A stretch of 39,924 bases of DNA from IMG/VR virus record IMGVR_UViG_3300025167_000028, positions 1 through 39,924 of that record; one strand, written 5' to 3'. The notes below the pieces were generated by a model. That model searched no databases. It was not told where the DNA came from and worked only from the letters and a program-made list of their open reading frames with translations. The position numbers and the translations under genes are program-made. The stretch is from a virus. Lineage: Duplodnaviria > Caudoviricetes. Shown piece by piece: positions 161-16,166 of this stretch (within the stretch, counting starts at the first letter, position 1; every line of letters starts with the position of its first letter).

Positions 161-188
161 GAATTCTGTCTAATACACTGTGTTATAC
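161..188 (+). other. attI-like recombination site 1
   Basis: GAATTCTGTCTAATACACTGT then GTTATAC; same 21-mer at 3385 and 8630; heads a cassette array; has 2 extra nt before GTT relative to the other copies. Confidence 0.7.
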
Positions 189-347
189 GGCAATGTTTTT
201 ACGGCACTGGTCCCATGCCAGAGCAGGGGTTTTCCCCCAGGCAAGGAGCGTTGCCGGTCCTTCTTCCCAAATGTGGTAACCACCCCATGTTGCCCGACAA
301 CAAAAGGCTCTCGGTATTATATTCAGTACAAACTGTTTCGCGGTCAT
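183..347 (-). CDS. hypothetical cassette protein (54 aa, MTAKQF...)
   Basis: GAGGA RBS before ATG at 347; stop TAA is the complement of TTA in the GTTATAC core. Confidence 0.55.
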   Translation of the reverse strand: MTAKQFVLNIIPRAFCCRATWGGYHIWEEGPATLLAWGKTPALAWDQCRKNIAV

Positions 348-359
348 GTTGTGGTCCTC

Positions 360-420
360 GTGTAACAAGTCATTCCAGCCGATCCTCGCTACGCTCGGGC
401 GGCTGAATTCCGGCTTATAC
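360..420 (+). other. attC-like site (R' core lacks its G)
   Basis: R'' GTGTAAC, 5 nt, L'' ATTCCAGC ... L' GCTGAAT, 6 nt, TTATAC; extra C in L''. Confidence 0.8.
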
Positions 421-1077
421 GTTGCGCTCGCAATCATCGTTTTTGCGGCAAATTATCCAGAAGCAATGACGCTTCCGGGCGTGGTGCGCGGTTTTCCATT
501 TCGTTGAAACCATCGGCCCTTTCCTGATTTTTACAATCAGATCGCAGACCGTGAAACCCGCTTCCTCGGCCATCCGCATAAAATCAGCGTGCGGCCATTT
601 CGATTTGTGGTTGTTCACCATGTCGGTGATTTTGGCGAGCAGCAAGCCGTTCGGCTTTAATACGCGCATGGCCTGTTTTAAGAACGGCGGATAGAGATAA
701 CTCAGGTTCCAATCCTGGTCGACCCCGCATTCCATTGTCGCGCCGAAGTCCACGTCGAAACGCTTTTTGCTTTTGTCCCGCCCTTGCGGGCCGACATGGG
801 GCGGATCGAATATTACCGCACCATACGTCGCTGCCTTGACGCCATTCATTACTCGATTGTCGCCAACAATCATTGGTTTGTATCGCGGGTCAATGTCCAT
901 CGACACCACTTTTCGCTTTGAGCCTTTCCACATGCGCCCGGCGTTGTAGGTTGAATCAAGAATCGGCTCGGGTGGGATTGTCGGGTAGAACTTGAACATC
1001 GCTTCCAGCAAATCGGAATCGTTTCCTTCCCACACGCTGCTAATCGGAGCGTAAAGGAATGGTGCGAGGTCAGTCAC
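415..1077 (-). CDS. DNA amino-methyltransferase-like protein (N6A/N4C)
   Basis: SAM-binding-like ILDSTYNAG..MDID, catalytic IFDPPH, AMRVLKPNG motif. Confidence 0.8.
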   Translation of the reverse strand: MTDLAPFLYAPISSVWEGNDSDLLEAMFKFYPTIPPEPILDSTYNAGRMWKGSKRKVVSMDIDPRYKPMIVGDNRVMNGVKAATYGAVIFDPPHVGPQGRDKSKKRFDVDFGATMECGVDQDWNLSYLYPPFLKQAMRVLKPNGLLLAKITDMVNNHKSKWPHADFMRMAEEAGFTVCDLIVKIRKGPMVSTKWKTAHHARKRHCFWIICRKNDDCERNV

Positions 1078-1259
1078 GGGCGAATTCCAAATGAGTCACG
1101 AAAAATACCAGTACATGCACAACAAAACCAAGTATGCCCGTTGTCCCGGCTATAGTGCCAAACATCATGCTGGCAAACGCGGCAGTAGGAAGTCCGACTC
1201 ATAACAACTGGCTGGAACCGACGCCGGAGACAGCGCAGCATGTTTCCTGTAGCGTTCAT
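1074..1259 (-). CDS. small protein with two CxxC motifs; N-terminus encoded in attC
   Basis: CRVC...CCAC; ATGA overlap with upstream stop at 1256 and overlap with the MTase start. Confidence 0.55.
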   Translation of the reverse strand: MNATGNMLRCLRRRFQPVVMSRTSYCRVCQHDVWHYSRDNGHTWFCCACTGIFRDSFGIRP

Positions 1260-1289
1260 GGCCGGCGCGGTTCATCCATGGCGTTATGG
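1199..1289 (+). other. attC-like site
   Basis: R'' TCATAAC, L'' GCTGGAAC, inner stem CGACGCCGG/CCGGCGCG, L' GTTCATC, R' GTTATGG. Confidence 0.8.
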
Positions 1290-1528
1290 TGAACAACCGA
1301 TGCCCAATGTACTGTGATGAAATTCTGTAAAAACTCAGAATCATCACCCATCGTCGGCCTTCCCTGTGATTTTGCCACGCTACGCGCAAGGTTCACGCAA
1401 TCATGCACAGTCGCCCGCAGCGTAATATGTGCTGAAATATCGTTCCCCTCTGGGCCAGTAGCGGGCCAAGGCTCTCTCCACTCAAGTTCTGCGGTGTGCC
1501 TATTTTCTAGCAGATCGTCAATGTTCAT
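1256..1528 (-). CDS. hypothetical cassette protein
   Basis: 90 aa, GGAGG RBS, ATGA coupling on both sides; ends NAMDEPRRP inside attC. Confidence 0.7.
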   Translation of the reverse strand: MNIDDLLENRHTAELEWREPWPATGPEGNDISAHITLRATVHDCVNLARSVAKSQGRPTMGDDSEFLQNFITVHWASVVHHNAMDEPRRP

Positions 1529-1713
1529 AGTTCCTCCGTGCGCTCGCCGGTTAAGGGCGCGTTAGGCAACGTATATTGATGATAGTATTTCCTTGTAAGC
1601 CTTTCGTATGTTTCAGCTCGTTCTTTATGAAGCCAAAAAGGATAAAGAAGTTCTGCTTCTTCCAAGGCTTTCTTCCTTGCCAGTTCCATCAACCCTACAT
1701 AATCGAGTTCCAT
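1525..1713 (-). CDS. hypothetical cassette protein
   Basis: 62 aa, AAGGAGGT RBS; ends NAPLTGERTEEL. Confidence 0.65.
   Translation of the reverse strand: MELDYVGLMELARKKALEEAELLYPFWLHKERAETYERLTRKYYHQYTLPNAPLTGERTEEL
1547..1567 (+). other. attC right arm only (left arm degenerate)
   Basis: CCGGTTAAGGGCGC-GTTAGGC; GTTAGGCAA is exactly complementary to TTGCCTAAC at 1724-1732. Confidence 0.6.
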
Positions 1714-1725
1714 TCAACCTCCTTT

Positions 1726-1857
1726 GCCTAACAAGCGGTTCGAGATCGGACGGGCCTCGTCAGTGCCGTGTGCGGTTTCGTCGCCTTCTATTGGTTTCTC
1801 ACCACTCATGGTTTCTCATCTCCGTTATCGGCCCGCCGCTCAACCGCAGCGTTAGAT
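1726..1857 (+). other. attC-like site (long loop)
   Basis: R'' GCCTAAC, L'' GTTCGAG, stem CGGACGGGCC/GGCCCGCCG, L' GCTCAAC, R' GTTAGAT. Confidence 0.85.
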
Positions 1858-2063
1858 GGTGTAAACCCCATCTGTTCCGGCACCCCGACATAAGTCAGAA
1901 GCCGCACAGTTTCCTCACGCCACATAACAAAATAAAAATCATCCTGGCCGTGAAGCAACCCGATAAAAATATATTCGTTGCCTTCTTCGTCGAAATACTT
2001 GTTCCCTATTAAGGGCTCGTATTCTTTAACCAGATTTGTCCAATTATCATCTGCGTATGCCAT
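1806..2063 (-). CDS. hypothetical cassette protein
   Basis: 85 aa; ends NAAVERRADNGDEKP inside attC loop. Confidence 0.65.
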   Translation of the reverse strand: MAYADDNWTNLVKEYEPLIGNKYFDEEGNEYIFIGLLHGQDDFYFVMWREETVRLLTYVGVPEQMGFTPSNAAVERRADNGDEKP

Positions 2064-2148
2064 CTAACCTCGCCTTGAACCGGACGCGGGTTACGCCGCG
2101 CCGTTTCCTGTTGTTGAATCAGCCGCGCCGGTTATGGCGGCGTTATAC
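2062..2148 (+). other. attC-like site
   Basis: R'' ATCTAAC; GCCTTGAACCGGACGCGG pairs with CCGCGCCGGTTATGGC with two extra bases on the left arm; R' GTTATAC. Confidence 0.85.
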
Positions 2149-2454
2149 GGCATCCCCTTTGTAGGTAAGGCTTAAGCCGCTCTGTCCGTCCGTACAGCAC
2201 CATATCTGCGGTAGTTGCGGGTATGGTGTTCCGGTGTTTGGCGCTTCGACCCAACGCGGAACGTGTGATGTTTCAAGCGGCCACGGCGGGGAGCGATCAC
2301 GCTCGATAATAATCGGAACGGAAGGAATGAACTTAGAACCGAAAAGCTCGTGTAGTTGATCGTGCAATTCCTTTGCTTCTTCAATAGAAAGCTCAACCTT
2401 CTTGCCGTCTTTCGTCTCAAGTTCAATCTTCGTTAGTTTCAATTTCTTTGTCAT
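2143..2454 (-). CDS. hypothetical cassette protein
   Basis: 103 aa, GGAG RBS; stop lies in the GTTA core. Confidence 0.7.
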   Translation of the reverse strand: MTKKLKLTKIELETKDGKKVELSIEEAKELHDQLHELFGSKFIPSVPIIIERDRSPPWPLETSHVPRWVEAPNTGTPYPQLPQIWCCTDGQSGLSLTYKGDAV

Positions 2455-2482
2455 GTCAGTCTCCGTTGTAGAAGAAAATGCC

Positions 2483-2539
2483 GTATAACACGGCGCTCAT
2501 GCCGACTCGCTACGCTCGCGGCATAGCTAGGCGTTGGGC
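2483..2539 (+). other. attC site (canonical 57 bp)
   Basis: GTATAAC-ACGGC-GCTCATGC-CGACTCGCTACGCTCGCG-GCATAGC-TAGGC-GTTGGGC. Confidence 0.92.
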
Positions 2540-2706
2540 GTCAAAATTTTTAGTGACAATTCCACTACGCATAAAGCACTTCCGACTTGAGCAAGGCATC
2601 GAAATTTATTGTTTAGTGTTGGTGTTGGCTCACCGATCAAGAAAATTCCTGGCGAAATCTCTTTACCGTCCATTTTAGGCAATTCCAAATTACCAATAAT
2701 CTCCAT
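2527..2706 (-). CDS. hypothetical cassette protein (59 aa, below ORF-track cutoff)
   Basis: MEIIGNLELPKMDGKEISPGIFLIGEPTP...KILTPNA*; fills the cassette. Confidence 0.6.
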   Translation of the reverse strand: MEIIGNLELPKMDGKEISPGIFLIGEPTPTLNNKFRCLAQVGSALCVVELSLKILTPNA

Positions 2707-2725
2707 GTCTATTTTCGTCCTTCAC

Positions 2726-2848
2726 GCCCAACCCGGCGCTCAACGCGGACGCTGCGCCAGCGGGCGTCTCGTCGGCTTGTGGTTTCTGGTCGTTCATCGC
2801 TTCGGCTCCTGTTCGTGGCGCGCAGCGCCGGTTAGCTCTACGTTAGAA
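2726..2848 (+). other. attC-like site
   Basis: R'' GCCCAAC, L'' GCTCAAC, stem CGGACGCTGCGC/GCGCAGCGCCG, L' GGTTAGC, R' GTTAGAA. Confidence 0.88.
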
Positions 2849-3129
2849 CGCACACGCTCGCACATAGCCTCGTGCATGGCCTCGGCTTCTTCCCATGTCG
2901 TGCAACGGTCTTGCTCTTGATCGAGCTTACCGCCGAATATCATCGTTTCAAAAAGAAGCGGGGGGCCGTCACCGTATTGATGGTTGAGGCCAAGAAAAAC
3001 CGTGCTCACTTCAACATCATCAATGGTCGTTTTACGAACTGCCCGGTCTGTTCTTTCAAACCTTCGTGCCCAAGTCATCAAGTCGGTTTTTACGGCCTTG
3101 TGTCCTTCAAGAATGTAGTGATCGCTCAT
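2794..3129 (-). CDS. phage hypothetical protein
   Basis: AAGGAG RBS before MSDHY; VSTVFLGLNH...PLLFETMIFGG motif familiar from phage early genes; ends NVELTGAARHEQEPKR in attC. Confidence 0.75.
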   Translation of the reverse strand: MSDHYILEGHKAVKTDLMTWARRFERTDRAVRKTTIDDVEVSTVFLGLNHQYGDGPPLLFETMIFGGKLDQEQDRCTTWEEAEAMHEAMCERVRSNVELTGAARHEQEPKR

Positions 3130-3142
3130 AAATTCTCCTTTG

Positions 3143-3325
3143 TTAATCCTTGGCCGCATTCCTGACCTGGATGTTAGTACTCAATGCGCGAATATCTTTT
3201 GCAGTGCCTCGCTGCTCTACAATGCACGCAGATGCTTCGACAGCTGTATCGTATGCCTTGCGAGCTAGTACAATATCTGCATCGCAACCGTACTTGACAC
3301 TTGAAATAAACTCTTCAAACTTCAT
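3143..3325 (-). CDS. hypothetical protein
   Basis: 60 aa, GAGG RBS. Confidence 0.55.
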   Translation of the reverse strand: MKFEEFISSVKYGCDADIVLARKAYDTAVEASACIVEQRGTAKDIRALSTNIQVRNAAKD

Positions 3326-3384
3326 CGTTATAACCTCATAAAGCCAGCCGGGATAGTCAGCGCGCCCCTAATCTTTCGTGGGCA

Positions 3385-3410
3385 GAATTCTGTCTAATAC
3401 ACTGTTAGCC
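3385..3410 (+). other. attI-like recombination site 2
   Basis: GAATTCTGTCTAATACACT-GTTAGCC; no hairpin; followed by a cassette with complementary ends. Confidence 0.8.
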
Positions 3411-3551
3411 CTCTCGGGCCTTCGCTACACGCTCCAGGTATCGGCGCACTCGTTCCCAGTCTTTCGGGTGGACCCATACCTGCCGGAGCGTGTAGCCCTT
3501 GGCACGCATCCTTGCGCGCTCGTCCCGCTTCCGTTGGGCGGCATCCTTCAC
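3405..3551 (-). CDS. small DNA-binding/antitoxin-like protein (DUF3018/RHH-like)
   Basis: MKDAAQRKRDERARMRAKGYTLRQVWVHPKDWERVRRYLERVAKAREG*; GTGA coupling; stop lies in the core. Confidence 0.6.
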   Translation of the reverse strand: MKDAAQRKRDERARMRAKGYTLRQVWVHPKDWERVRRYLERVAKAREG

Positions 3552-3724
3552 GGATAAATCCACCTGTACACTTCTTCCCCGCCTTCATCTTGGTCGAAGC
3601 GCACTAACCAATACTCCCCGTCCCCGCACTTCACGTCTTCGGCTTCAAGCAGGGTTGCCGTTCCCTCGTACTTTATTTTCGTAATTGGGTCTTCGTAAAT
3701 TTCTAATCTGTCGTATGGTTTCAT
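3548..3724 (-). CDS. small acidic hypothetical protein (58 aa)
   Basis: MKPYDRLEIYEDPITK...YRWIYP*; AGGAGG RBS; directly behind a consensus promoter. Confidence 0.7.
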   Translation of the reverse strand: MKPYDRLEIYEDPITKIKYEGTATLLEAEDVKCGDGEYWLVRFDQDEGGEEVYRWIYP

Positions 3725-3762
3725 GCTTCCTCCTGTTGTCGTAGCTCGATTGCTACAGACAC

Positions 3763-3791
3763 ATTATAGCACGTGACATGTCACATGTCAA
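3763..3791 (-). promoter_or_regulatory. consensus sigma70 promoter with palindromic operator
   Basis: TTGACA-17 nt-TATAAT; spacer contains the palindrome GTGACATGTCAC. Confidence 0.9.
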
Positions 3792-3794
3792 GAG

Positions 3795-3858
3795 GGCTAA
3801 CACGGCGCTCCACCGGATCGCGCGCTACGGCGCGCTCCCGGTGAGCTTGGCGTTAGAG
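3795..3858 (+). other. attC site (64 bp)
   Basis: GGCTAAC-ACGGC-GCTCCACC...GGTGAGC-TTGGC-GTTAGAG. Confidence 0.92.
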
Positions 3859-4208
3859 CCCATGCGCAGTAGCTCCTTGCCACGCCGCCAAATGTCCATG
3901 CGCAGTGCGCCTCGCGCCTCCATCTTCCGTGCCTGCGTCCAGGTAATCGCCTGCGTTATGCGTCGGCAGTCCATCTCGTGGCACATCTGCGGCTTCGTGC
4001 CGTGGATCGTGCAGCCTTCGTCGCCGAGGTACACGCAGGCGCCGTCCGGTTTGTGCGCCAGCATCCTCGCTTCCGGCATGTACGGATGCGGCTCCGTCTG
4101 GTACTTGCTCAGGTCGTCGCCAGCCAGCAGCCGCACCGCATCGTTGTGGCAGCAGCGCGTGCAGCCGTCGCACGGCACGTCGTACAAGGGCTCTAACATG
4201 GCGCTCAA
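3825..4208 (-). CDS. YkgJ-like cysteine cluster (Zn/Fe-chelating) protein
   Basis: CDGCTRCC...CVYL...GCTIHGTKPQMC pattern; ends NAKLTGSAP in attC; start uncertain. Confidence 0.75.
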   Translation of the reverse strand: MSAMLEPLYDVPCDGCTRCCHNDAVRLLAGDDLSKYQTEPHPYMPEARMLAHKPDGACVYLGDEGCTIHGTKPQMCHEMDCRRITQAITWTQARKMEARGALRMDIWRRGKELLRMGSNAKLTGSAP

Positions 4209-4210
4209 CC
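4191..4210 (+). other. attC left arm only
   Basis: CTCTAAC-ATGGC-GCTCAACC; GGGCTCTAAC complements GTTAGAGCCC at 3852; no right arm seen. Confidence 0.65.
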
Positions 4211-4287
4211 TCTAGCCGCGGTCTTGTGAAATCAATGCGCCGATCTTAATCTTTCCGTACATTCTCGCCTCCGTCTACGCCCAACAA

Positions 4288-4941
4288 TTAAATCCTCGCA
4301 ATCGCCTTGATCCGCATCCGGCGATTGCGAATCTGTTCGGCATATCCCGGCTCACCGCCGCTGTATCTGTGTTGTGCCCGCGCGATGGACTTGAAAGATT
4401 GTAGATGCTGAGCCATATATCGCGCACCTGCATGCAGATTAGCCTCGATACCGAATCGCTGGCTCCAATCCAACCCGAGAGCGCGCGCGGTGGCTGGCAT
4501 GATCTGGGCCAATCCTACCGCACCCGCGCGGCTGACGGCCCGTGAATCGAAATGCGATTCTTGCTCGATCTGCGCCGCCCACCAGGTCACATCCAGCCCA
4601 TGAGTTTCGGCGGAGACCACCAGGGCGCGGGCGATGCGCGACGCCGGGACACGAGGATTTACGCCAGCGACATATCGGGTCAGTCGATCAATTGTCTGCT
4701 CGCGCTTGGCGTCCGTAAGTTCGGCGGCGAGACTGATCGCCAGATCAACCGATTTCTCGGCGGTATCGGCAGCCTGTTTTATCAGACCATGAGCTGCGAA
4801 ATACTCGCCTCGCAGAAAATTGATCTCACGATCGCGCTCCATGACCGTGACGTATACCGCCGCCATCCCAAAAGCAGCGCCTATAACTGCGTGAATCAGC
4901 GCATCGCGCATGCCGTACCTATCATCATGTTGGATTTTCAT
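4288..4941 (-). CDS. lytic transglycosylase (SLT domain) with N-terminal TM segment
   Basis: EQES...AVSRAGAVGLAQIMPATA...NLHAGARY motifs. Confidence 0.88.
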   Translation of the reverse strand: MKIQHDDRYGMRDALIHAVIGAAFGMAAVYVTVMERDREINFLRGEYFAAHGLIKQAADTAEKSVDLAISLAAELTDAKREQTIDRLTRYVAGVNPRVPASRIARALVVSAETHGLDVTWWAAQIEQESHFDSRAVSRAGAVGLAQIMPATARALGLDWSQRFGIEANLHAGARYMAQHLQSFKSIARAQHRYSGGEPGYAEQIRNRRMRIKAIARI

Positions 4942-5467
4942 ATACCAGCGCCCGAAGAGCGAATTGTTGCAGATCAATTTTCAGGCCCGCCGTCTCCGCC
5001 GCCCGCGCCGCCGCCCGCGCCGCCGCCGTCTCCGCCGCCCGCGCCGCCGCCCACGCCGCCTGCGCCCCCCGATCTTTACCGGCAAGCCAGTTCGCCGCCC
5101 ATACGTGAAATTTCGGCTCGTCATAAACAGCGAGCGCGCAGTAGATCGCAAACGCCACTCGTTGCTTGGTCGTGAACACGGGCAGTGGTAATTCCTTAGT
5201 CAGCCGCATCCGCTTGGCCCCGCCCTTAAGACCGTCGTGCGCAACCTGGTCGCACTCGACCGCGAACAGGCGTGGGCTCTGAATATGCGCGTGTGCGGGG
5301 TTCAGAAGAACTGCTAACTCAGGCGAGTCGTAAAAATGGAACACGTCGGCGGAACAGAGCACGTTGCCGGGGGTATCTATCTCATGTATCTCGCCCAAGT
5401 GCCACTGAAAACCGCAGTGGGTGCACATTGTCTGATCGGTCAATTTATATTTTGTGAGGAGCTCCAT
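4925..5467 (-). CDS. phage hypothetical protein with Ala-rich repeats
   Basis: AAWAAARAAETAAARAAARAAETA low-complexity tract; coupled to neighbours. Confidence 0.7.
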   Translation of the reverse strand: MELLTKYKLTDQTMCTHCGFQWHLGEIHEIDTPGNVLCSADVFHFYDSPELAVLLNPAHAHIQSPRLFAVECDQVAHDGLKGGAKRMRLTKELPLPVFTTKQRVAFAIYCALAVYDEPKFHVWAANWLAGKDRGAQAAWAAARAAETAAARAAARAAETAGLKIDLQQFALRALVYENPT

Positions 5468-6147
5468 CAAAATCTCCATCCCAGCACGATCACATTCGTT
5501 TGCCCTACCCCTGCCATAAAGCTATGGTTATTAAAACGACCGCCGACATCGGTAATATATGCGTACCATCCAAGCGAGAAATTCTTTCCGCGCACACCCG
5601 TCCCCGCCATCCACCCAAATCCATGTAATGTTTCATTGAACGTGTTTCCATTGAACGTACTTCCATTATAAAAATACTCATCTTTCCACAGGGAAAAAGA
5701 CTGTCTGAAGCCACCTGCGCCGATCTCCACGAAGGCATGCCGGCCGAATACGCGCGAGACCAGGAAGGCGCGCATGGAGCCAGTGGTATGATAAAAATCA
5801 ACATCGCCCTGGCAGCTTTGCCCACCTCCGGCGAGGATACAATCTTCATTATCCGAAGCGTAGCCAGCGAGCGAGTAAACGCCCAGATCGGCATACGAAA
5901 GCCTCCAACCCCCATGATCCAATCCGATTCTGAACATCGAGGGCTTCATGTTCCAATCCACTCCGTAGCCCGCGCATTCCTGATGCCACAAACCGCATGG
6001 AGGCTTTTCGTATTTCGATTGCCCGATTTCGATGAAAGGTGTGGCGGCGCAGGCGTCCTTGATGTACGAAAATCCCACTAGAAACAATAGCACCGCAATC
6101 CAAAATGCGGTATAGGATTTGATTAACAGCTTTGTGTCTTCGTCCAT
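5467..6147 (-). CDS. putative outer-membrane beta-barrel protein
   Basis: Signal-peptide-like N-terminus, amphipathic Gly/aromatic strands, C-terminal VIVLGWRF. Confidence 0.6.
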   Translation of the reverse strand: MDEDTKLLIKSYTAFWIAVLLFLVGFSYIKDACAATPFIEIGQSKYEKPPCGLWHQECAGYGVDWNMKPSMFRIGLDHGGWRLSYADLGVYSLAGYASDNEDCILAGGGQSCQGDVDFYHTTGSMRAFLVSRVFGRHAFVEIGAGGFRQSFSLWKDEYFYNGSTFNGNTFNETLHGFGWMAGTGVRGKNFSLGWYAYITDVGGRFNNHSFMAGVGQTNVIVLGWRF

Positions 6148-6156
6148 TGAGGTCTC

Positions 6157-6456
6157 CTACGATCGGTTATAAGCGCGCAATACACCTTTTGCTTCATCTC
6201 GTTCGGCGACATATTCCAGCAATAGACCAAGCCAAGCTCTTAGCGGCCAGTCGGGGTTGTATGTGCGAAAATCTTCCAAACTTTTATACCCCGTCGCTTC
6301 CAGATATTGTGTTTCTGTTATCCGGAAACGTCTCAGCCAACGCCTCATATTTTCATTCGTGGGCTCCGTCCTCCAGTTAGGCAATCTGATGTAAAAACGC
6401 CTTGCAAGACCAACCCAGGTCTCGTTGTCAACAAATTGGTTTCGTAGCGTGTTCAT
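6157..6456 (-). CDS. hypothetical protein
   Basis: 99 aa ORF in the leftward operon. Confidence 0.6.
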   Translation of the reverse strand: MNTLRNQFVDNETWVGLARRFYIRLPNWRTEPTNENMRRWLRRFRITETQYLEATGYKSLEDFRTYNPDWPLRAWLGLLLEYVAERDEAKGVLRAYNRS

Positions 6457-6650
6457 GGCTCAAGTAGGGGTGCTGAATGCTGTAACTATGGCACTTAGGC
6501 CTAGTCGAGTCAAGTTTTAGGCTAACCTGATCTTGCCCGATGCTAGTTGCCCCAAGCGCAGGCGCTTATACCGCGCGAGTCTTAGCCACATGATGCGCGC
6601 GCATAGTTTGTGCCCGCGCGCGCGGACCACGATTTTGACGGCATTGGGGC

Positions 6651-7415
6651 TCATATTTTCTCCAGATATTTTTTATCCAGTTGCCAGTAAGCAAGTAGTA
6701 ATCGGAACTTTTCAAATCCAGTGTCGAGATGTGATTGATCCCATTCATGAACACGGGTCAAGCCGGGATTATTGACTGAAATAAATATATTTATTCCCCT
6801 GGAGCTTGGCATTCCAAGCCCCGCACGATAAGCGGCCAATTGCATGCATTGTTCCGGCCACGTTAAGTTATCGCTGGTTTCGGAAAATTCCTTGGTTTTG
6901 AAGTCAATCACCATCGAGTCATTGTGCAAATCCACCTTCCCCCCGTAACCCAAGGGCGAGGCGAACGATCTTTCGCTATGCCACCTATCGCCTAATTTGT
7001 TCAGTTCTTCCAATACGGCGGTAACAAATTTTTCATGGGCAGGGTTAAAATTCTTGTGTTGCAAAGCGCGATCTATCGAGCCATGAATTGCAGACCCTTC
7101 CTCGGCTCTTTTCCTCGACTGTTCTTTGGCGTCCCGCGTAACTCGAACCGCGAAATCATCCAATGTTTCGTCCGGATCCATAGGAAGCGTCAAGGCCGCC
7201 AAAATCGCCTGCCGCAGTTTCCATTTTTCTAAGCCCGGCTTGGAAACGATGGACGTAATCATCGTCACGCTGGGGAACAACCCCAAACGGCGGGCATCGC
7301 GTAGCGTAGTCGGGCGCTCCGGCTTATCCCCAACACGGATTGTGTACACCGGAGAGCCGTCTCGGGCATACCAATGCCCCGACTCAAAAGCTATTTTCTT
7401 TTCCATCTTTAACAT
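6651..7415 (-). CDS. PD-(D/E)XK exonuclease (recombination)
   Basis: PSVT, GSAIH, E...GKVD...IDFKT, QLAAY motifs. Confidence 0.85.
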   Translation of the reverse strand: MLKMEKKIAFESGHWYARDGSPVYTIRVGDKPERPTTLRDARRLGLFPSVTMITSIVSKPGLEKWKLRQAILAALTLPMDPDETLDDFAVRVTRDAKEQSRKRAEEGSAIHGSIDRALQHKNFNPAHEKFVTAVLEELNKLGDRWHSERSFASPLGYGGKVDLHNDSMVIDFKTKEFSETSDNLTWPEQCMQLAAYRAGLGMPSSRGINIFISVNNPGLTRVHEWDQSHLDTGFEKFRLLLAYWQLDKKYLEKI

Positions 7416-7987
7416 CAGAATCCAATGTCATCGTCAAAATCAGGAAAATCAGGAGAAGACTCTTGCTTGTTTGTTGATCGGTTGATTTTCTTGGATAGCC
7501 ACTCCGGCAGTTTGCTGAATTGATCCTCATCCGGCGCGTCGAGAGAGAAAGAAATAAGATCGTTCACGGGTTCCGGTTTCACAGTCCCTTTAGGAAGGGA
7601 GGCGACGGTTTTGACGTTTGCATATTGTTTGCCGGTTTTTGAAATTGTGTGAATCACCGTCAACATGCAGGGCGCGCCAAGAATTTTAAAAATATCGAAA
7701 CCCCCCAGTTCCTCCTCGGTAAAAGCCCGCCCCCGCCAGGACACCAAGTCCTGAGCCAAGTTCGAGTCTGGATGCAGCGAGGCGGTATATTCCTTTGCGA
7801 TCATGAAGGGACGACCATCTTCCATAAGCTCATTGGGAAATTCCCACCCCACGCGAATTTTGTGCTTCGCCCCAAACGGGGTATTTTGAGACCCCAGATC
7901 TACCACCATGTAACACCGGGCTATATGCGTTCCCTGCGGAGCAAGTTGAAATTCCCCTTCCGGTGGCTTGCGAATAATCAGCGTCAT
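7415..7987 (-). CDS. ssDNA-binding/recombination-associated protein
   Basis: GTHIARCYMVVDLG N-terminus, acidic tail DFDDDIGF, adjacent to the exonuclease. Confidence 0.7.
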   Translation of the reverse strand: MTLIIRKPPEGEFQLAPQGTHIARCYMVVDLGSQNTPFGAKHKIRVGWEFPNELMEDGRPFMIAKEYTASLHPDSNLAQDLVSWRGRAFTEEELGGFDIFKILGAPCMLTVIHTISKTGKQYANVKTVASLPKGTVKPEPVNDLISFSLDAPDEDQFSKLPEWLSKKINRSTNKQESSPDFPDFDDDIGF

Positions 7988-8169
7988 TTCACGATCTCCT
8001 CGTAATTGATCCCGCACTCAAAACATAAATGTTTAAATTCCTCAGTCACCCCGGAGTGCTTGATCGCTGCATAGACTTTACGCAAACACTCAAATGTATA
8101 ATATTCCCGTTCTTCAAGGTCGCGCCGCTGTTCTTCATTCCAATCCGTTTCACCCATCATTTCTTTCAT
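7984..8169 (-). CDS. hypothetical protein
   Basis: GGAGG RBS; coupled to the next gene. Confidence 0.6.
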   Translation of the reverse strand: MKEMMGETDWNEEQRRDLEEREYYTFECLRKVYAAIKHSGVTEEFKHLCFECGINYEEIVK

Positions 8170-8458
8170 CGGCAACCTCCTTCTCAGCTTGTTGAAAGGC
8201 GCTATCCGCCAAGTAGTCTTTGACGAGCCCAGCTAATAGTTGGCCGACATAAGGCACGCCGATATAAGCATTATCTGTTTTGAGGCAGTCGGCGATTTCA
8301 GACATCTCTTTTCTGTCGCGGTTATAAGCCCAGGTAACCGCCTGAGAGACGATGTAAGCATCAATGTGTCGAAGATTCAGCGCATAGATTTCGTCTGCGC
8401 GACCGGATATATCCTGTCTGTTTTCAGATTCAACGTCATAGATCGGATGTACCTCCAT
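8150..8458 (-). CDS. hypothetical protein
   Basis: AAGGAG RBS before MEVHPIY. Confidence 0.65.
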   Translation of the reverse strand: MEVHPIYDVESENRQDISGRADEIYALNLRHIDAYIVSQAVTWAYNRDRKEMSEIADCLKTDNAYIGVPYVGQLLAGLVKDYLADSAFQQAEKEVADERNDG

Positions 8459-8586
8459 AAGATTCTCCTTTTTAAAGATTCCCGCCACCCTCCGACGGGA
8501 CGCCCAATAAGGGCGGAGCTTCGGGAAGACCCCAGGAACGCTGCTCATCACGTCAGACTTTAGTCGTCTCCGAGGCAATTCATAGT

Positions 8587-8617
8587 ACCGTTCGTCGGCT
8601 GATTATTGCCGTTCATC
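8587..8617 (+). promoter_or_regulatory. tandem AlgR/LytTR-like boxes
   Basis: ACCGTTCGTC at 8587 and GCCGTTCATC at 8608 (21-bp period). Confidence 0.5.
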
Positions 8618-8629
8618 GTTTGATAGGCG

Positions 8630-8655
8630 GAATTCTGTCTAATACACTGTTAGGC
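8630..8655 (+). other. attI-like recombination site 3
   Basis: GAATTCTGTCTAATACACT-GTTAGGC; preceded by GATAGG as in copy 1. Confidence 0.8.
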
Positions 8656-8916
8656 ATCATTCAGCCATACCTTCACTAATATAAAGTCATGCTTCTTTGC
8701 TACATTAATAGATGGTTGCCATTTCTTGTAAAATGGTTTCATCCATTCCTTTTCGTAGTACAGGAAATCAAACGCCTTCCCCCAAGCTTCGTCTTTATGA
8801 ACAGAAAATGTTTGCTTTACCAGAGTTCCACTAGGCGTTTGCAAACACCAGCCATCATGCCTAACAAGGCCAATCGAGCCGACGCCTTTGCCAGCGTTCC
8901 GTTTCCTGTTAATCAT
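8650..8916 (-). CDS. hypothetical cassette protein
   Basis: Starts in the attC loop (MINRKRNAGKGVGSIGLVR); stop lies in the core. Confidence 0.65.
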   Translation of the reverse strand: MINRKRNAGKGVGSIGLVRHDGWCLQTPSGTLVKQTFSVHKDEAWGKAFDFLYYEKEWMKPFYKKWQPSINVAKKHDFILVKVWLNDA

Positions 8917-8945
8917 TTCGGCTCGGCTCATTGGCATCGTTGGGC
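8859..8945 (+). other. attC-like site
   Basis: R'' GCCTAAC; GCCAATCGAGCCGACGCC pairs with GGCTCGGCTCATTGGC with two extra bases on the left; R' GTTGGGC. Confidence 0.85.
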
Positions 8946-9163
8946 GACAAGTATGTCCTATCTGTTGGTATTACCTTCTCTGCACCGCACTTTGAACATC
9001 GGATAATCAGTAGTGATACATCTCCTTTTTTAGAGCCATCATCTATGCTTATAACGTCGTATCGGTCGTGAGAGACACCAAGGAAAGCGTGTACGCAGAA
9101 TATTTTTTGAATCCAGCCGCCCAACAATTCTTTCAAGCGGACGCTCGGCAACAGCGCAGTCAT
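8909..9163 (-). CDS. hypothetical cassette protein (CxH...CxxC)
   Basis: FCVH...RCSKCG; starts and stops inside attC loops. Confidence 0.7.
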   Translation of the reverse strand: MTALLPSVRLKELLGGWIQKIFCVHAFLGVSHDRYDVISIDDGSKKGDVSLLIIRCSKCGAEKVIPTDRTYLSPNDANEPSRND

Positions 9164-9206
9164 GGTTTATCCTTTGCGGCTCGCGCCGCTTAAAGAAGCG
9201 TTAGGA
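9119..9206 (+). other. attC-like site
   Basis: GCCCAAC-AATTC-TTTCAAGC...GCTTAAA-GAAGC-GTTAGGA. Confidence 0.9.
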
Positions 9207-9318
9207 AATTTTGTTGCGACTTTTGTGAATCTAAAACCCAACGGTCGTTACCAGCGTGCCTCCAGCCGGAACTTATCAAAAGAATTACCTCTGGCTCGTT
9301 AGCATCTATATCGCGCAT
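9190..9318 (-). CDS. short cassette ORF (42 aa), possibly a remnant
   Basis: GGAGG RBS, MRDIDANEPEV...NFLTLL*. Confidence 0.4.
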   Translation of the reverse strand: MRDIDANEPEVILLISSGWRHAGNDRWVLDSQKSQQNFLTLL

Positions 9319-9333
9319 ATTTCCTCCGTTTAC

Positions 9334-9355
9334 GCCTAACAATTCGCTCGTGCGG
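9334..9355 (+). other. attC left arm only
   Basis: GCCTAAC-AATTC-GCTCGTGC-GG, then breaks off. Confidence 0.6.
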
Positions 9356-9360
9356 ATTAG

Positions 9361-9531
9361 CTACGCAGCTTCTTTGATAATCTCACCCGCATATTCCTGC
9401 TCACTCTCATCAAATATGTAGATTTTATGAAAGTCGTCCTCGCAGCAGCTATAAACCAGCAAAATGCGACAAATCGGGCTGATCTCAGCCTGAGGTAGAT
9501 CGCGCTCGTCGTATTGGTGAAGATGTAACAT
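9361..9531 (-). CDS. hypothetical protein
   Basis: AGGA RBS before MLHLHQY; overlaps the end of the Cro-like gene. Confidence 0.5.
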   Translation of the reverse strand: MLHLHQYDERDLPQAEISPICRILLVYSCCEDDFHKIYIFDESEQEYAGEIIKEAA

Positions 9532-9694
9532 CGTTTTTCCTGATTCCGAGTCTTTGTCTAGCGCCCATAATCCGATCGGTCTGAGATTGCGGGAGTATGT
9601 TGGGCCACATATAAACAGCATGCCGTCCTACCCCGAGTGCGGCGGCTAGGGCTTTTACCGAGCCAAACAGGACTATTGCTTGTTGTTTTGTCAT
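9485..9694 (-). CDS. Cro-like HTH transcriptional regulator
   Basis: AIVLFGSVKALAAALGVGRHAVYMW HTH signature, 69 aa. Confidence 0.85.
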   Translation of the reverse strand: MTKQQAIVLFGSVKALAAALGVGRHAVYMWPNILPQSQTDRIMGARQRLGIRKNDVTSSPIRRARSTSG

Positions 9695-9700
9695 AAGTCG

Positions 9701-9729
9701 AAGATAAGCGCAATTACATCTATTGTCAA
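9701..9729 (-). promoter_or_regulatory. sigma70 promoter for the Cro-like gene (probably leaderless)
   Basis: TTGACA-17 nt-TATCTT; ATG begins 7 nt after the -10 element. Confidence 0.7.
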
Positions 9730-9802
9730 ATGTTTTACTTATTCTCGGATCTCGGACGAACGGTAATATTTTGGGCTTGTTATTATTAGTAAACCAGTTT
9801 AC

Positions 9803-9860
9803 ATTTAACGCCGGAAATCACGGGCCGGCGTAGCCGGTCCCGTGGATTGATTTGTTAGGG
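9803..9860 (-). other. attC site on minus strand
   Basis: Minus strand: CCCTAAC-AAATC-AATCCACG...CGTGATT-TCCGGC-GTTAAAT. Confidence 0.9.
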
Positions 9861-9906
9861 CGCATTTGGGAAAGAGCATGAGAACAGAACAGACAGAGGA
9901 TGAATT

Positions 9907-10098
9907 ATGAATAAATCCATGATGCAAAAATCCCTAGACAAACAAATTGAATACATGAAGGAGGAGGTTGCTTGGTATGAAAATAAAGTGATAAGTGGTA
10001 AAGATTGGCTTGATGAATTAAATAATTGTCGGGCAATTCTTAAAACACTTGAAAGTCTCCGAGACGAGCCAACCAAACTGGTAGCAACGGAGAAATAA
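9907..10098 (+). CDS. hypothetical cassette protein
   Basis: 63 aa, GAGGA RBS. Confidence 0.65.
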   Translation: MNKSMMQKSLDKQIEYMKEEVAWYENKVISGKDWLDELNNCRAILKTLESLRDEPTKLVATEK

Positions 10099-10112
10099 AA
10101 TATGGTTAAAAA

Positions 10113-10176
10113 GGTAACAGGCGCATGACGGCAGCTTCATCGCCGGAAGGCGTCCTTGTTGACCGCCTTGTTAGCC
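10113..10176 (-). other. partly degenerate attC (minus strand)
   Basis: Minus strand R'' GGCTAAC-AAGGC-GGTCAACAAGGACGC; partner GGTAACAGGCGC on plus; R' not recognisable. Confidence 0.55.
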
Positions 10177-10754
10177 GGCAATTGCTCGGCTATGACAGGG
10201 CGGCAGCAGCGGACACCATACGGCGCAACCACTACACCCGGAGCGTGCCCAGCGGGAAGAGTCACTACGTCCAGTTTGGCGACGCGATAGTGGTGTGGTC
10301 AATCCCCGCGAACAAGAACATTGCGCGGTTTGTTCTCGGCTGGGCCGGCAACGTGTGGGAGTTGTCGAGGCTGTGGGCACCGGACGGGCACGAGCCGAAC
10401 TTGCTCACGCAAGCCATAAGCGCAGCCGTCAAGGTGATTGTGCGGCTTGAGCGGCCCGACGCGCTGGTGAGCTACGCCGACCCGAACGCGGGGCACAAGG
10501 GCGGGGTTTACAGGGCCGCGTCTTGGCTCTACCACGGCAAGAGCGAAGAAGTGAGGACGTACCGGGCACCAGACGGAACGACCGTAGCGCGCAGGGCTTT
10601 CCATTCCGGGCGGAAGGGGCTGCGAAAGGCTGAGATTGAAGCACTCGGCTACAAGGAAGAAAAGTTGCCCGGCAAAGAACGGTTTGTGCGGCCCATATCA
10701 AAGCGGGCAGCGCGGACTTTGACGGCTAACGCCGGAAATCACGGGCCGGCGTAG
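10125..10754 (+). CDS. Mom-like (GNAT-fold) DNA modification protein
   Basis: RNHY, WELSRLW, LVSYADP..GHKGGVYRAASWLYHG motifs; starts and ends in attC sites. Confidence 0.7.
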   Translation: MTAASSPEGVLVDRLVSRQLLGYDRAAAADTIRRNHYTRSVPSGKSHYVQFGDAIVVWSIPANKNIARFVLGWAGNVWELSRLWAPDGHEPNLLTQAISAAVKVIVRLERPDALVSYADPNAGHKGGVYRAASWLYHGKSEEVRTYRAPDGTTVARRAFHSGRKGLRKAEIEALGYKEEKLPGKERFVRPISKRAARTLTANAGNHGPA

Positions 10755-10781
10755 CCGGTCCCGTGGATTGACTGGTTAGCG
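10724..10781 (-). other. attC site on minus strand (45 bp identical to 9806-9850)
   Basis: Minus strand: CGCTAAC-CAGTC-AATCCACG...CGTGATT-TCCGGC-GTTAGCC. Confidence 0.9.
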
Positions 10782-10802
10782 GTAATTGACAGGAGATAAA
10801 CC

Positions 10803-11090
10803 ATGAAACAACGTAAACCAAAATTGGATTCTAACCGCATTCCTTACGCTGTAGTTTCCATAGATAAATTGATTGAAATAGCAGAAAGGATAGTGAAACT
10901 TGAAAGTGAAGTTGAGCACCTGAAACAAACGGCAGGGAATACAGAGAGCCAGATGATAGAGCTTCTTGTTCCGCATATCTCTGATTTCCGGGACGGAAAA
11001 GTTTTTATCCGCGCCCAGGGCGAAGATGGGGCGATCTATCGTGCCGAGGTTCAAATCGTCGGGGCGGTGGGCGTAGACCCAGAGTATTAA
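10803..11090 (+). CDS. hypothetical cassette protein
   Basis: 95 aa, AGGAG RBS. Confidence 0.7.
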   Translation: MKQRKPKLDSNRIPYAVVSIDKLIEIAERIVKLESEVEHLKQTAGNTESQMIELLVPHISDFRDGKVFIRAQGEDGAIYRAEVQIVGAVGVDPEY

Positions 11091-11093
11091 ATG

Positions 11094-11122
11094 ACCGCTA
11101 ACGCAGAATTGAGGCGCTCGCC
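11094..11122 (-). other. attC half-site (R' arm, minus strand)
   Basis: ACCGCTAAC complements GTTAGCGGT at 10775; encodes MTANAELRRSP*. Confidence 0.55.
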
Positions 11123-11266
11123 ATGAAAGCATAAATGCCCTGACTGTGGGAAGTACGCAATCTGGAAGCTGAGAAAGTTTAAGGCGTTGCGGCTTGCGCC
11201 ATGTGCTTGACCTTGTGCTATGTATACATCATTATGTCGGAACCCTAACAAATCCGACAAAAACTT

Positions 11267-12022
11267 ATGTACACTAAGCTCTATAGAGGAATAGTTGACG
11301 GTTCATTGTACGGCAGAAGGGAGGCATTAACGGTGTTTTTCGTCATGCTGGCCTTAGCAGATCAAGAAGGAATTGTAGATGTTCTTCCTAGAAAGATAGC
11401 CGATATCCTTGGAGAAACAGAAGACTTTGTAACTATCGGACTCGCGGAATTGTCTGCTCCAGACCCCATAAGCCGAACCCCAACCGCAGAGGGCAGACGA
11501 ATTCTTCCCTTGAACGAGCATAGAACTTGGGGCTGGAAAATAACTAATTATGAAGCCTACCGGAAGATTCGAGATGAAGAACAGCGTCGGGAATATCAAC
11601 GTCAGTGGGATAGGAATAAACGTAAACGTCCGACCACAAATCCGACAGCATCCGACAAATCCGACCACATCCGACCAAAAACGACCAATACAGAAGCAGA
11701 AGCAGATACAGAAGCAAAAGTATTAACTACATTAGCTTCGAGCGAGAAAATCTCGCTCTCAGCCGAAGGCGTTTGGCAAAACATCCCGAACTCCCTATTG
11801 GCAACATGGCAAAAAGGGCACCCCGCAGTCAACATTGAGACGGAGCTTTCAAAGGCCGCTGCATGGATTATGGCTAACCCGAAGAACCGAAAGAACAACT
11901 ACGCCCGCTTTTTTACGAACTGGCTGTCCAGATCGCAAGACAACGCGCCCCGCCAAGGCAAAATCCACCGCGCCCTGGAAGCCTGTGACAAGGTGTTTGG
12001 GCCGATGAGGGCGAAGCCATGA
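11267..12022 (+). CDS. phage replication initiator (lambda O-like organisation)
   Basis: N-terminal wHTH-like region, internal iterons, C-terminal FFTNWLSR motif, genomic position. Confidence 0.75.
   Translation: MYTKLYRGIVDGSLYGRREALTVFFVMLALADQEGIVDVLPRKIADILGETEDFVTIGLAELSAPDPISRTPTAEGRRILPLNEHRTWGWKITNYEAYRKIRDEEQRREYQRQWDRNKRKRPTTNPTASDKSDHIRPKTTNTEAEADTEAKVLTTLASSEKISLSAEGVWQNIPNSLLATWQKGHPAVNIETELSKAAAWIMANPKNRKNNYARFFTNWLSRSQDNAPRQGKIHRALEACDKVFGPMRAKP
11629..11675 (+). repeat. iterons / probable replication origin
   Basis: TCCGAC at 11629, 11641, 11651, 11660 and 11670; inverted pair at 11236 and 11253 upstream of the gene. Confidence 0.75.
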
Positions 12023-14706: not shown

Positions 14707-14717
14707 TTGATTGGGAA

Positions 14718-14852
14718 TTATATAGATGACTCCCTCTGAGCTTTCTTCTTCCGGCGTGCGCGCTTCTTGGCCGGTTTGCTCTTGGGCTTCGGCCGATAGG
14801 ACAGAACCTTGTCCACGATTCGGTCAAGTACGGCGGGCGGCTTCTTGCTCAT
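14718..14852 (-). CDS. small basic ORF of the IS (44 aa)
   Basis: MSKKPPAVLDRIVDKVLSYRPKPK...; ATGA-coupled to the transposase; stop inside the TIR. Confidence 0.55.
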   Translation of the reverse strand: MSKKPPAVLDRIVDKVLSYRPKPKSKPAKKRARRKKKAQRESSI

Positions 14853-16039: not shown

Positions 16040-16166
16040 GATCTGAACTCCTTGGTTGATTTACCTAACCTACAATCAACATTGTACATAACTCCCTTGG
16101 GGAGTCAAGTACCTAACCAGACCAGCCGACGAACGGTAGGGAGTCATGTATATAAGTCCCATTTGA

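What the first reader, a model, noticed from the sequence alone, without database searches (positions are those of the whole stretch)
1199..10781. Cassette genes are antisense to attC and cross the crossover in a conserved reading frame
Seen: the position of the extra bases puts the attC top strand opposite the genes in all four arrays. Five genes stop exactly in the core (TAA of TAAC at 183, 415, 2143, 3405, 8650). Eight read the core AAC as an in-frame Asn and end within the neighbouring attC: NAMDEPRRP, NAPLTGERTEEL, NAAVERRADNGDEKP, NA, NVELTGAARHEQEPKR, NAKLTGSAP, NDANEPSRND and NAGNHGPA. Only the doubtful ORF 9190-9318 uses the third frame. The next gene often starts in the attC loop by ATGA overlap (1259, 1809, 2797) or nearby (8916, 9163). 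Established: canonical cassette genes are mostly sense to attC and end near R''. Inference: this works as a plug-and-play rule in which shuffling swaps short C-terminal tails but preserves termination and translational coupling in a compact operon. The recombinogenic bottom strand is always the non-template strand.
Basis: partly seen in the sequence, partly recalled or inferred. Interest (0 to 1): 0.85.

Follow-up and report, generated by a model that had tools for sequence, protein, structure and literature searches.

The report
Backwards integron cassettes in a phage
This phage carries four rows of small swappable genes bounded by bacterial integron-type recombination sites, each gene written backwards and nearly always meeting the cut point in one of two reading phases, a layout shared by many other phages that likely lets them borrow the host's integrase to reshuffle their own genes without breaking their operons.

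Summary
Mostly confirmed and extended. This ~40-kb P22-like phage holds four attC arrays whose genes all lie on the attC bottom strand. Three arrays start at an exact 21-nt core that is the attI of a bacterial integron clade (full-length IntI beside it in 13 of 75 genome hits). No tyrosine recombinase was found in the phage. Relatives swap whole cassettes exactly at G|TT, and homologues diverge right after the Asn. In 323 junctions from 143 clusters of other viral loci, 264 genes are antisense and 23 sense (bacteria: 3 and 37). Genes reaching the core stop in it (114) or read it as Asn (79); only 2 use the third phase, about 30% being expected. Corrections: gene 9907-10098 also uses the third phase; the core at 415 is mutated; two ATGA partners are short leaders; direct coupling holds at about a fifth of sites. 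Likely mechanism: host IntI shuffles a phage-specific cassette pool that is read from phage promoters. Recombination and translation are untested. Eight literature searches found no description. This scan noted it before on other DNA (38 findings).

The parts
161..188 (+). attI-type core 1, head of array 1; two extra bases at the crossover (may be impaired)
183..437 (-). cassette ORF, stop TAA in core (true start may lie inside the attC at 360-420)
360..420 (+). degenerate attC (core CTTATAC)
415..1077 (-). DNA methyltransferase cassette gene, stop at the mutated core
   Evidence: phrog_24333 E 9e-22
1074..1259 (-). CxxC..CxxC small protein starting inside its own attC; junction at ~1074-1097 decayed (L011 has an attC there)
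1199..1289 (+). attC, crossover G1283
   Evidence: z -3.4
1256..1528 (-). cassette gene, Asn phase, tail NAMDEPRRP, ATGA overlap with 1259
1544..1567 (+). half attC (L', R' only), crossover G1561
1525..1713 (-). cassette gene, Asn phase, tail NAPLTGERTEEL, ATGA overlap with 1528
1714..1809 (-). 31-aa leader ORF in the attC loop; its stop directly precedes ATG 1713
   Evidence: sequence
1726..1857 (+). attC, crossover G1851
1806..2063 (-). cassette gene, Asn phase; found in other arrays of L093 and L120 with other tails
2062..2148 (+). attC, crossover G2142
2143..2454 (-). cassette gene, stop TAA in core
2483..2539 (+). attC, crossover G2533 (weak fold)
2527..2706 (-). cassette gene, Asn phase, tail NA
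2690..2797 (-). 35-aa leader ORF starting in the attC loop
2726..2848 (+). attC, crossover G2842
2794..3129 (-). gene of a widespread phage family, Asn phase, tail NVELTGAARHEQEPKR; no own attC found
3385..3410 (+). attI-type core 2, crossover G3404
3405..3563 (-). small regulator-like gene, stop TAA in core; joined to an attC instead of attI in L120
3548..3724 (-). second gene of the same cassette (replaced by another gene in L120)
3763..3791 (-). 12/12 sigma-70 consensus promoter with a palindrome in its spacer, inside the cassette
3795..3858 (+). attC, crossover G3852
   Evidence: z -3.8
3825..4199 (-). CxxCxxCC cassette gene, Asn phase, tail NAKLTGSAP
4191..4212 (+). half attC (R'', L'' only)
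8622..8655 (+). attI-type core 3, crossover G8649; L093 has the same backbone flank and a different first cassette
8650..8931 (-). cassette gene starting inside its own attC, stop TAA in core
8859..8945 (+). attC, crossover G8939
8909..9163 (-). cassette gene starting in its attC loop, Asn phase, tail NDANEPSRND
9119..9206 (+). attC, crossover G9200; its Asn frame stops 4 nt before ATG 9163
9190..9318 (-). doubtful ORF, third phase
9334..9353 (+). half attC (R'', L'' only)
9803..9860 (-). attC nearest the rightward genes' upstream region, crossover G9809
10067..10176 (-). attC, crossover G10073; holds the Mom start and an 8-codon leader overlapping it (ATGA)
10125..10754 (+). Mom-family DNA-modification cassette gene, Asn phase, tail NAGNHGPA
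10724..10781 (-). attC, crossover G10730
   Evidence: z -3.5
10803..11090 (+). cassette gene stopping before the core; same cassette (99%) in another array of L120
11091..11126 (+). 11-codon relay ORF that starts right after the stop and crosses the core in the Asn phase
11096..11121 (-). half attC (R', L'), crossover G11102; L120 has a complete attC here

Best explanation
The phage carries integron-type cassettes with reversed gene polarity inside its own operons, together with three copies of a host-type attI core but no integrase, and it likely uses the host's IntI in trans to swap them. SHOWN: each unit is a gene plus the attC at its 5' end; its 3' end sits at the G|TT crossover; units are exchanged between arrays and phages exactly there; the gene strand is the attC bottom strand. 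SHOWN: at the crossover a gene stops on the core's TAA (self-contained), or reads AAC as Asn and takes a short tail and stop from the neighbour, or, if in the third phase, nearly always stops just before the core, often overlapping an ATG that continues in the Asn phase. SHOWN: phage attC loops carry ribosome-binding-site-plus-ATG motifs on the bottom strand. INFERRED: because the sites lie inside phage transcription units, only reversed cassettes are read from the phage promoters. Selection then keeps a shared phase so that any order terminates cleanly and, at a minority of sites, re-initiates. INFERRED: host-type (sense) cassettes, which include defence-like genes, would be silent and polar there, so phage and host keep two separate pools on one recombinase. 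INFERRED: the units arise when IntI inserts an attC at a TAAC or AAC near the end of an ordinary phage gene, where the template strand reads GTT.
For: Polarity. attI: 3 exact copies, 0 in 100 shuffles; full-length IntI-like gene divergent within 350 nt in 13 of 75 genome loci, partial in 7 more; 7 of 7 tested ORFs pass the TIGR02249 cut-off; six different cassettes follow the core in phages. No PF00589 match in the own genome, no IntI in 5 of 5 other viral records. Exact exchange: L120 joins window cassettes 3404-3852 and 10730-11102 at TAA|C; L330 and L360 hold two cassettes in swapped order. R'/R'' of one cassette match 4/4 in 104 of 149, against 71 of 323 within a site. Orientation: 264 antisense to 23 sense in viruses, 3 to 37 in bacteria, p 2e-29. 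Phase: 114 stop in core, 79 Asn, 2 third phase; codon-usage null 27-39% third phase, p <= 4e-9; one junction per cluster, p 4e-5. 42 of 66 early-stopping genes are in the third phase, 17 of 42 with an ATG overlap against 3 of 24. SD+ATG on the bottom strand in 74 of 200 phage sites, 8 of 200 on the top strand, 3 of 44 in bacteria. Tails. Ordinary phage origin: of 80 fetched relatives of 2794-3159 only the window's copies and L123 sit in attC arrays; about 12 of 120 Mom homologues (by eye) have an Asn tail.
Against: No recombination, transcript or peptide was observed. Direct coupling holds for only 59 of 269 sites. Why the third phase is avoided while stop-in-core is tolerated is unexplained: the third phase also terminates inside the site in 208 of 269. 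Early stops in the spacer are not enriched over bacteria (36 of 269 vs 10 of 49), and ATG overlap of the Asn-frame stop is only borderline (62 of 269 vs 5 of 49, p 0.055). The window has 2 third-phase ORFs, four half sites, a mutated core and a 2-nt insertion in attI 1, so parts of it may be fossil. Nine viral loci hold purely sense arrays and seven are mixed, and the published TJE1 array is sense: reversal is not forced. None of 21 sense cassette genes in viral loci had a defence-type Pfam hit, so the silencing of captured defence genes is not shown. Genes were called with my own simple model and sites were found with two motif families.
Confidence: 0.72

Rival explanations
1. Scar of origin only: attC sites were inserted by IntI at GTT sites near gene ends, which gives reversed polarity and an Asn or TAA at the joint; there is no selected common phase and little ongoing shuffling.
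For: IntI inserts cassettes at GWT sites genome-wide (10.1101/2022.09.11.507474, passages). AAC is the commonest in-frame reading of YAAC in these genes (1066 vs 461 and 253). Many sites in the window are decayed.
Against: Codon usage predicts about 30% third-phase read-through, but 2 of 81 are seen. Third-phase genes exist but 42 of 44 stop before the core. A 99%-identical cassette sits in different arrays. R'/R'' pairs are kept matched.
Confidence: 0.13
2. Reversal is selected to raise recombination: the bottom strand is the non-template strand, so transcription (or lagging-strand replication) frees it to fold during infection.
For: Polarity flips with transcription direction at about 9700. 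Lagging-strand location favours attC folding (PMC8946536, passages).
Against: This follows by definition from antisense genes and does not explain the phase rule. Arrays 1-3 and array 4 have opposite polarity yet lie on the same side of the presumed origin near 11267-12022 (position inferred from short repeats; no family hit), which argues against the replication version. Loot et al. saw no effect of transcription direction on insertion.
Confidence: 0.1
3. The hairpins are RNA elements (translation or termination signals) or repeats that merely resemble attC, and gene exchange is by ordinary homologous or illegitimate recombination.
For: They overlap start and stop codons; sequence is poorly conserved; three fold no better than shuffles.
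Against: Exchange exactly at G|TT, cassette-wise R'/R'' covariation, host attI core at array heads, loop motifs shared with host attC sites, and two viral loci with a near full-length IntI at the end of such an array.
Confidence: 0.05

Closest known systems
CALINs in phage genomes (Qi et al. 2023, PMC9892861; I read parts 1-4 of 7: abstract to conclusion, not the supplement)
   Same: attC clusters without an integrase in phages; methyltransferase cargo; five phage attC sites were recombined by IntI1 in that paper.
   Different: 17 CALINs from 10,705 genomes, described as resembling bacterial arrays; no reversed genes, phase rule or host attI without intI in a lytic-type phage in the text read. 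TJE1's two clear sites are sense with its genes.
Canonical integrons (intI, attI, Pc, attC cassettes)
   Same: attC anatomy with bulged bases, G|TT crossover, R'/R'' pairing, attI core identical to that of a bacterial clade.
   Different: No intI; three attI cores; genes read towards attI from phage promoters instead of away from Pc; the stop lies at the neighbour's R', not in the own R''.
ORF-11/ORF-18 of attI1 and short ORFs in attC (review PMC8876359, passages; Carvalho et al. 2024, PMC11511950, passages)
   Same: A reading frame crosses the crossover and takes its stop from the neighbouring cassette; short ORFs in attC aid re-initiation.
   Different: There it is a leader peptide on the top strand and called anecdotal; here the cargo proteins themselves cross on the bottom strand, in a shared phase, across many phages.
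attG insertion by IntI (Loot et al., 10.1101/2022.09.11.507474, passages)
   Same: Gives a route for attC to enter phage operons at GWT; the phage attI fragment begins at a GAT or GTT that is itself an attC core in L010 and L011.
   Different: Described as dispersal of cassettes into genomes; the passages seen do not cover making new, reversed cassettes from phage genes.
Inverted-integrase integrons of Treponema (Cury et al., 10.1101/030866, passages)
   Same: An unusual orientation within an integron.
   Different: There intI is flipped relative to the attC sites; here the cassette genes are flipped relative to their attC sites.

Membership tests
attC site | R''-L''-loop-L'-R' imperfect palindrome with RYYYAAC and GTTRRRY ends | tested here: met
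   11 complete sites plus one degenerate; finder gives 0-1 sites in 10 shuffles
attC site | Extrahelical bases on the L'' arm defining the bottom strand | tested here: met
   rule calibrated on bacterial arrays
attC site | Folded bottom strand more stable than chance | tested here: inconclusive
   6 of 12 with z <= -2.4, 3 of 12 no better than shuffles
attC site | Recombined by IntI, bottom strand preferred, at G|TT | not testable with these tools
   indirect only: natural exchanges exactly at G|TT
attI site | Core next to a divergent intI, cassettes entering at G|TT | tested here: met
   for the same core in bacteria: 13 of 75 full-length, 7 partial, TIGR02249 7 of 7; the phage copy is a shortened form
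complete integron | intI gene on the element | tested here: not met
   no PF00589 match in G000, 96% complete; no tblastn hit of IntI to the window
complete integron | Cassette genes sense to attC, expressed from Pc upstream of attI | tested here: not met
   all window cassette genes antisense
CALIN | Two or more attC on one strand within 4 kb, no integrase nearby | tested here: met
   arrays at 360-3858, 8859-9206, 9803-10781; clustering rule from 10.1101/030866; IntegronFinder itself not run

The most novel reading that the evidence does not exclude
Tailed phages run a parallel, reversed integron cassette pool on the host's integrase: they capture the host attI core, turn their own genes into cassettes by IntI insertion at gene-terminal TAAC/AAC, keep one translation phase across the joint so that any order works, and are shielded from host defence cassettes by polarity. 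That would make phage operons a visible factory of new integron cassettes.
Probability: 0.4. Interest if true: 0.92.

Novelty: new variant of a known kind. Interest (0 to 1): 0.78.

Why it matters
Integrons are seen as bacterial tools, recently as stores of anti-phage genes. Here phages appear to use the same sites, and probably the same enzyme, to shuffle their own accessory genes (methyltransferases, Mom, PAPS-reductase-like, Lar-like and many unknowns), with the opposite polarity and a strict reading-phase rule at the joint. It gives a concrete, testable route for how new cassettes are born, explains recurrent short C-terminal tails on phage proteins, and suggests that attC arrays in viruses are far commoner than the 17 CALINs reported from isolate genomes.

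Tried and rejected
Window-only phase test: not significant (p about 0.17, by hand). Replication-strand rule: arrays of opposite polarity lie on one side of the presumed origin (weak, origin inferred). Enrichment of early stops in the spacer: not found. Degron idea for third-phase tails: tails are mostly polar 4-mers, no support. My first reading that L093's first cassette is sense was wrong; it is antisense and reads through attI in the Asn phase. The first finder mis-paired 2738-2837 and gave false third-phase calls (window copies, L428); these were removed. Two junction coordinates were off by one and corrected. blastn of 1190-2860 against 50,697 GenBank phages: no match. Promoter and terminator scans overall no richer than shuffles (13 vs 11.1; 9 vs 13.5). 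No RNA holder listed. Contigs of four runs showed one joint from the attI core to G8939 (one contig, depth 3.3, 28 letters on the short side): too weak to count and left open. L007/L008 join the window's array 4 to the array of G001 through a shared cassette; read as a likely assembly chimera and not used as evidence. Rows dropped before counts: 11 own-genome copies of 236 viral loci; 36 viral and 9 bacterial junctions without a called gene; 1 miscalled site. One relative sharing cassettes with the window (L436) stayed in the viral set. Family scans covered 100 of 366 antisense genes, 21 viral sense genes and 50-52 of 56 bacterial cassette genes. Not run: IntegronFinder, covariance model, structure prediction.


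Full report
CONTEXT. The window is a 39.9-kb virus record, 96% complete, with P22-like portal and coat, terminase and endolysin. Contigs bridging its two ends suggest a circular map. Genes run leftward from about 9700 and rightward beyond it. It has no tyrosine recombinase match (IntI tblastn negative).

THE OBSERVATION. A box-and-bulge scan finds attC-type sites only in the first 11 kb: 8 in the window against 0-1 in each of 10 shuffles; a looser version and inspection add the rest, giving 11 complete sites, one degenerate and four half sites. The extra bases put the top strand on + for arrays 1-3 (genes -) and on - for array 4 (genes +). The gene strand folds with unpaired G and T on its 3' arm in the well-folding sites; 6 of 12 have z <= -2.4 and 3 fold no better than shuffles. 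All eight Asn tails and four of five TAAC stops are as reported. The core at 415 reads CTTATAC. The ATGA partners at 1809 and 2797 are 31- and 35-aa leaders. The window tally (5 stop in core, 8 Asn, 2 third phase) is not significant alone.

Arrays 1-3 each begin at an exact 21-nt sequence (161, 3385, 8630; none in 100 shuffles). Its 18-nt core occurs in 75 bacterial genome loci, mostly Gammaproteobacteria (Acidiferrobacterales, Thioalkalivibrio) and Desulfobacterota by record title. A full-length integrase gene lies divergently within 350 nt in 13 of 75 and a fragment in 7 more; 7 of 7 such ORFs tested pass the integron-integrase cut-off. A purine follows the GTT in 71 of 73. The first gene after it is sense in 49, antisense in 8, uncalled in 7 and too close to the end in 11. 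It is therefore a host attI core. The phage keeps a shortened form, followed by six different cassettes in the window and three relatives. In L010 and L011 the fragment starts at the core of an attC, as if itself captured by IntI (inference).

CASSETTES MOVE AT THE CROSSOVER. In L120 (record G001) the window's cassette 3404-3852 is joined at TAA|C to the attC of cassette 10730-11102 (99% identical), instead of to attI. L093 shares the backbone up to attI 3 and then has a different first cassette, which reads through attI in the Asn phase. The 1806-2063 cassette sits in other arrays in L093 and L120. L330 and L360 carry two cassettes in swapped order, each gene with the attC at its 5' end; this fixes polarity without using bulges. 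The two 7-mers flanking a gene are kept complementary: 10 of 13 window cassettes match 7/7, and 104 of 149 viral cassettes match 4/4 against 71 of 323 within a site.

TAILS. Of 15 homologues of 1806-2063, 12 keep the Asn and all then diverge. Among the best 120 of 760 Mom homologues about 12 (by eye) have an Asn plus attC-type tail where the others simply end. Of 256 viral relatives of 2794-3159, 80 were fetched; only the window's two copies and L123 lie in arrays and 8 have a lone hit. The cargo thus looks like ordinary phage genes, some of which have become cassettes.

GENERALITY. Three orientation-neutral attC patterns fetched 236 viral loci. After dropping 11 own copies, 323 unique junctions in 143 clusters remained. 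The gene at the crossover is antisense in 264, sense in 23, uncalled in 36; by cluster 117, 8 and 18. Bacterial attI loci give 3, 37 and 9 (p 2e-29). Antisense genes stop on the core's TAA in 114, read it as Asn in 79, use the third phase in 3 (one a miscalled site), pass through in the stop phase in 2, and stop earlier in 66. Coding sequence of the same loci predicts 27-39% third phase among read-throughs; 2 of 81 gives p <= 4e-9, and one junction per cluster gives p 4e-5. Of the 66 early stops 42 are in the third phase, with a peak at the last possible codon before the core; 17 of 42 overlap an ATG that continues in the Asn phase, against 3 of 24. The window's 11091-11126 is a similar relay. 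Limits: my own gene caller (checked on the window), two motif families, and a finder that misses several true sites.

HOW PLUG-AND-PLAY IS IT? The Asn frame stops inside the site in 242 of 269 phage attC (third phase 208, stop phase 166; bacteria 37 of 49, p 0.008). It ends within -8 to +12 nt of the site's own gene start in 59 of 269 (48 and 24 for the other frames), 82 of 274 with relays. Exact overlaps are as frequent when the present neighbour never enters the site (13 of 106) as when it does (9 of 73), as expected for a standard interface. SD+ATG lies on the bottom strand in 74 of 200 phage sites, 3 of 44 bacterial ones. Against: early spacer stops are not enriched, ATG overlap is borderline against bacteria (p 0.055), and I cannot say why the third phase is shunned while stop-in-core is common. 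Termination is well supported; coupling is real but a minority.

MECHANISM. Shown: anatomy, polarity, exchange at G|TT, phase bias, host attI core, no integrase here. Two of 145 viral loci carry a near full-length IntI at the downstream end of such an array, co-directional with the genes, so the enzyme type fits. Inferred: host IntI acts in trans. attI 3 and attI 2 lie inside the leftward gene run, upstream of further genes, so only reversed cassettes are read and an untranslated insert would likely be polar (untranslated stretches lowered downstream expression in PMC11511950, passages). Host cassettes of this clade include two TIR proteins, an OLD/TOPRIM ATPase and an EcoRI-type methylase among 50 scanned, in line with integrons storing defence genes (10.1101/2024.07.02.601686, passages). 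Phage cargo: 31 of 100 hit a PHROG, with 4 DNA methyltransferases, 3 PAPS-reductase-like, 1 Mom, 1 Lar-like. Shielding from defence cassettes is plausible but unshown: 0 of 21 viral sense genes had a defence-type Pfam hit, and 9 viral loci are purely sense. Origin by IntI insertion at gene-terminal TAAC/AAC rests on GWT insertion and on the geometry.

LITERATURE. Eight searches found phage CALINs (PMC9892861, parts 1-4 of 7 read, supplement not seen and may bear on orientation) but no account of reversed cassette genes or a phase rule. TJE1's two clear sites are sense. Precedents for frames crossing a crossover are ORF-11/18 and attC short ORFs (PMC8876359, passages; Jacquier 2009 known only through these). 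PMC5737381, PMC8946536, PMC8618304 and 10.1101/030866 were seen as passages. Subscription journals are largely not covered. Earlier notes of this scan report the same layout in other genomes (38 findings; phase rule); they are unchecked AI notes and were not used as evidence.

VERDICT. New here: the match of three phage attI cores to a host integron clade, exact exchanges in close relatives, and a quantified phase rule including the stop-before-and-relay class. Interest 0.78.

Noticed in passing
window 181-182: attI copy 1 has two extra bases at the crossover compared with copies 2 and 3 and all host copies; may be an imprecise joint that inactivates it.
   Followed up: partly
L023/L063/L068, L042/L071/L086, L016/L057 and others: Several bacterial genomes carry the same attI core at two or three loci, most without an adjacent intI; this host clade seems to disperse solo attI sites.
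   Followed up: no
L237:3007-4116 and L306:1120-2160: Viral loci with a near full-length IntI at the downstream end of a reversed array, on the same strand as the cassette genes; in L306 a second recombinase-like gene follows.
   Followed up: partly
window 1199-1289, 2062-2148, 8859-8945; host sites in L061, L066, L029, L069: A shared loop motif reads as an AGGA-type ribosome-binding motif on the bottom strand in both host and phage attC sites (13 of 44 host loops); a possible pre-adaptation for reversed genes.
   Followed up: partly
window 3405-3791: Two-gene cassette with a perfect sigma-70 promoter, a palindromic operator and a small regulator; in L120 the first gene is replaced by an unrelated one while promoter and regulator stay.
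   Followed up: partly
L011:4150-4741: A host-type sense cassette (stop in its own R'') sits inside a reversed phage array; no Pfam hit.
   Followed up: partly
L307, L396 (30-37% GC): Low-GC viral loci with purely sense arrays of small phage-like genes: a second, canonical-polarity kind of phage array.
   Followed up: no
L028, L031, L055 (first cassette after attI): A Xer-like tyrosine recombinase (30-34% to IntI) is itself the first gene after attI in three bacterial genomes.
   Followed up: no
window 14849-15769: IS1595-family transposase inserted in the phage, with a 24-nt inverted repeat pair at 14712-14735 and 16138-16161.
   Followed up: no
window 18061-20079: Terminase large subunit ORF has an insert of about 170 residues near its N-terminus that looks intein-like; not tested.
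   Followed up: no
window 9485-9694 (-) and 9701-9729: Cro-like small ORF overlapping 9361-9621, behind a 10/12 promoter consensus, at the point where gene direction flips.
   Followed up: no
window 11600-11690: Short repeats inside ORF 11267-12022 resemble replication iterons.
   Followed up: no
run X17 on window 179/8939: One contig joins the attI core directly to the second cassette of array 3, as excision of the first cassette would give; weak support.
   Followed up: partly
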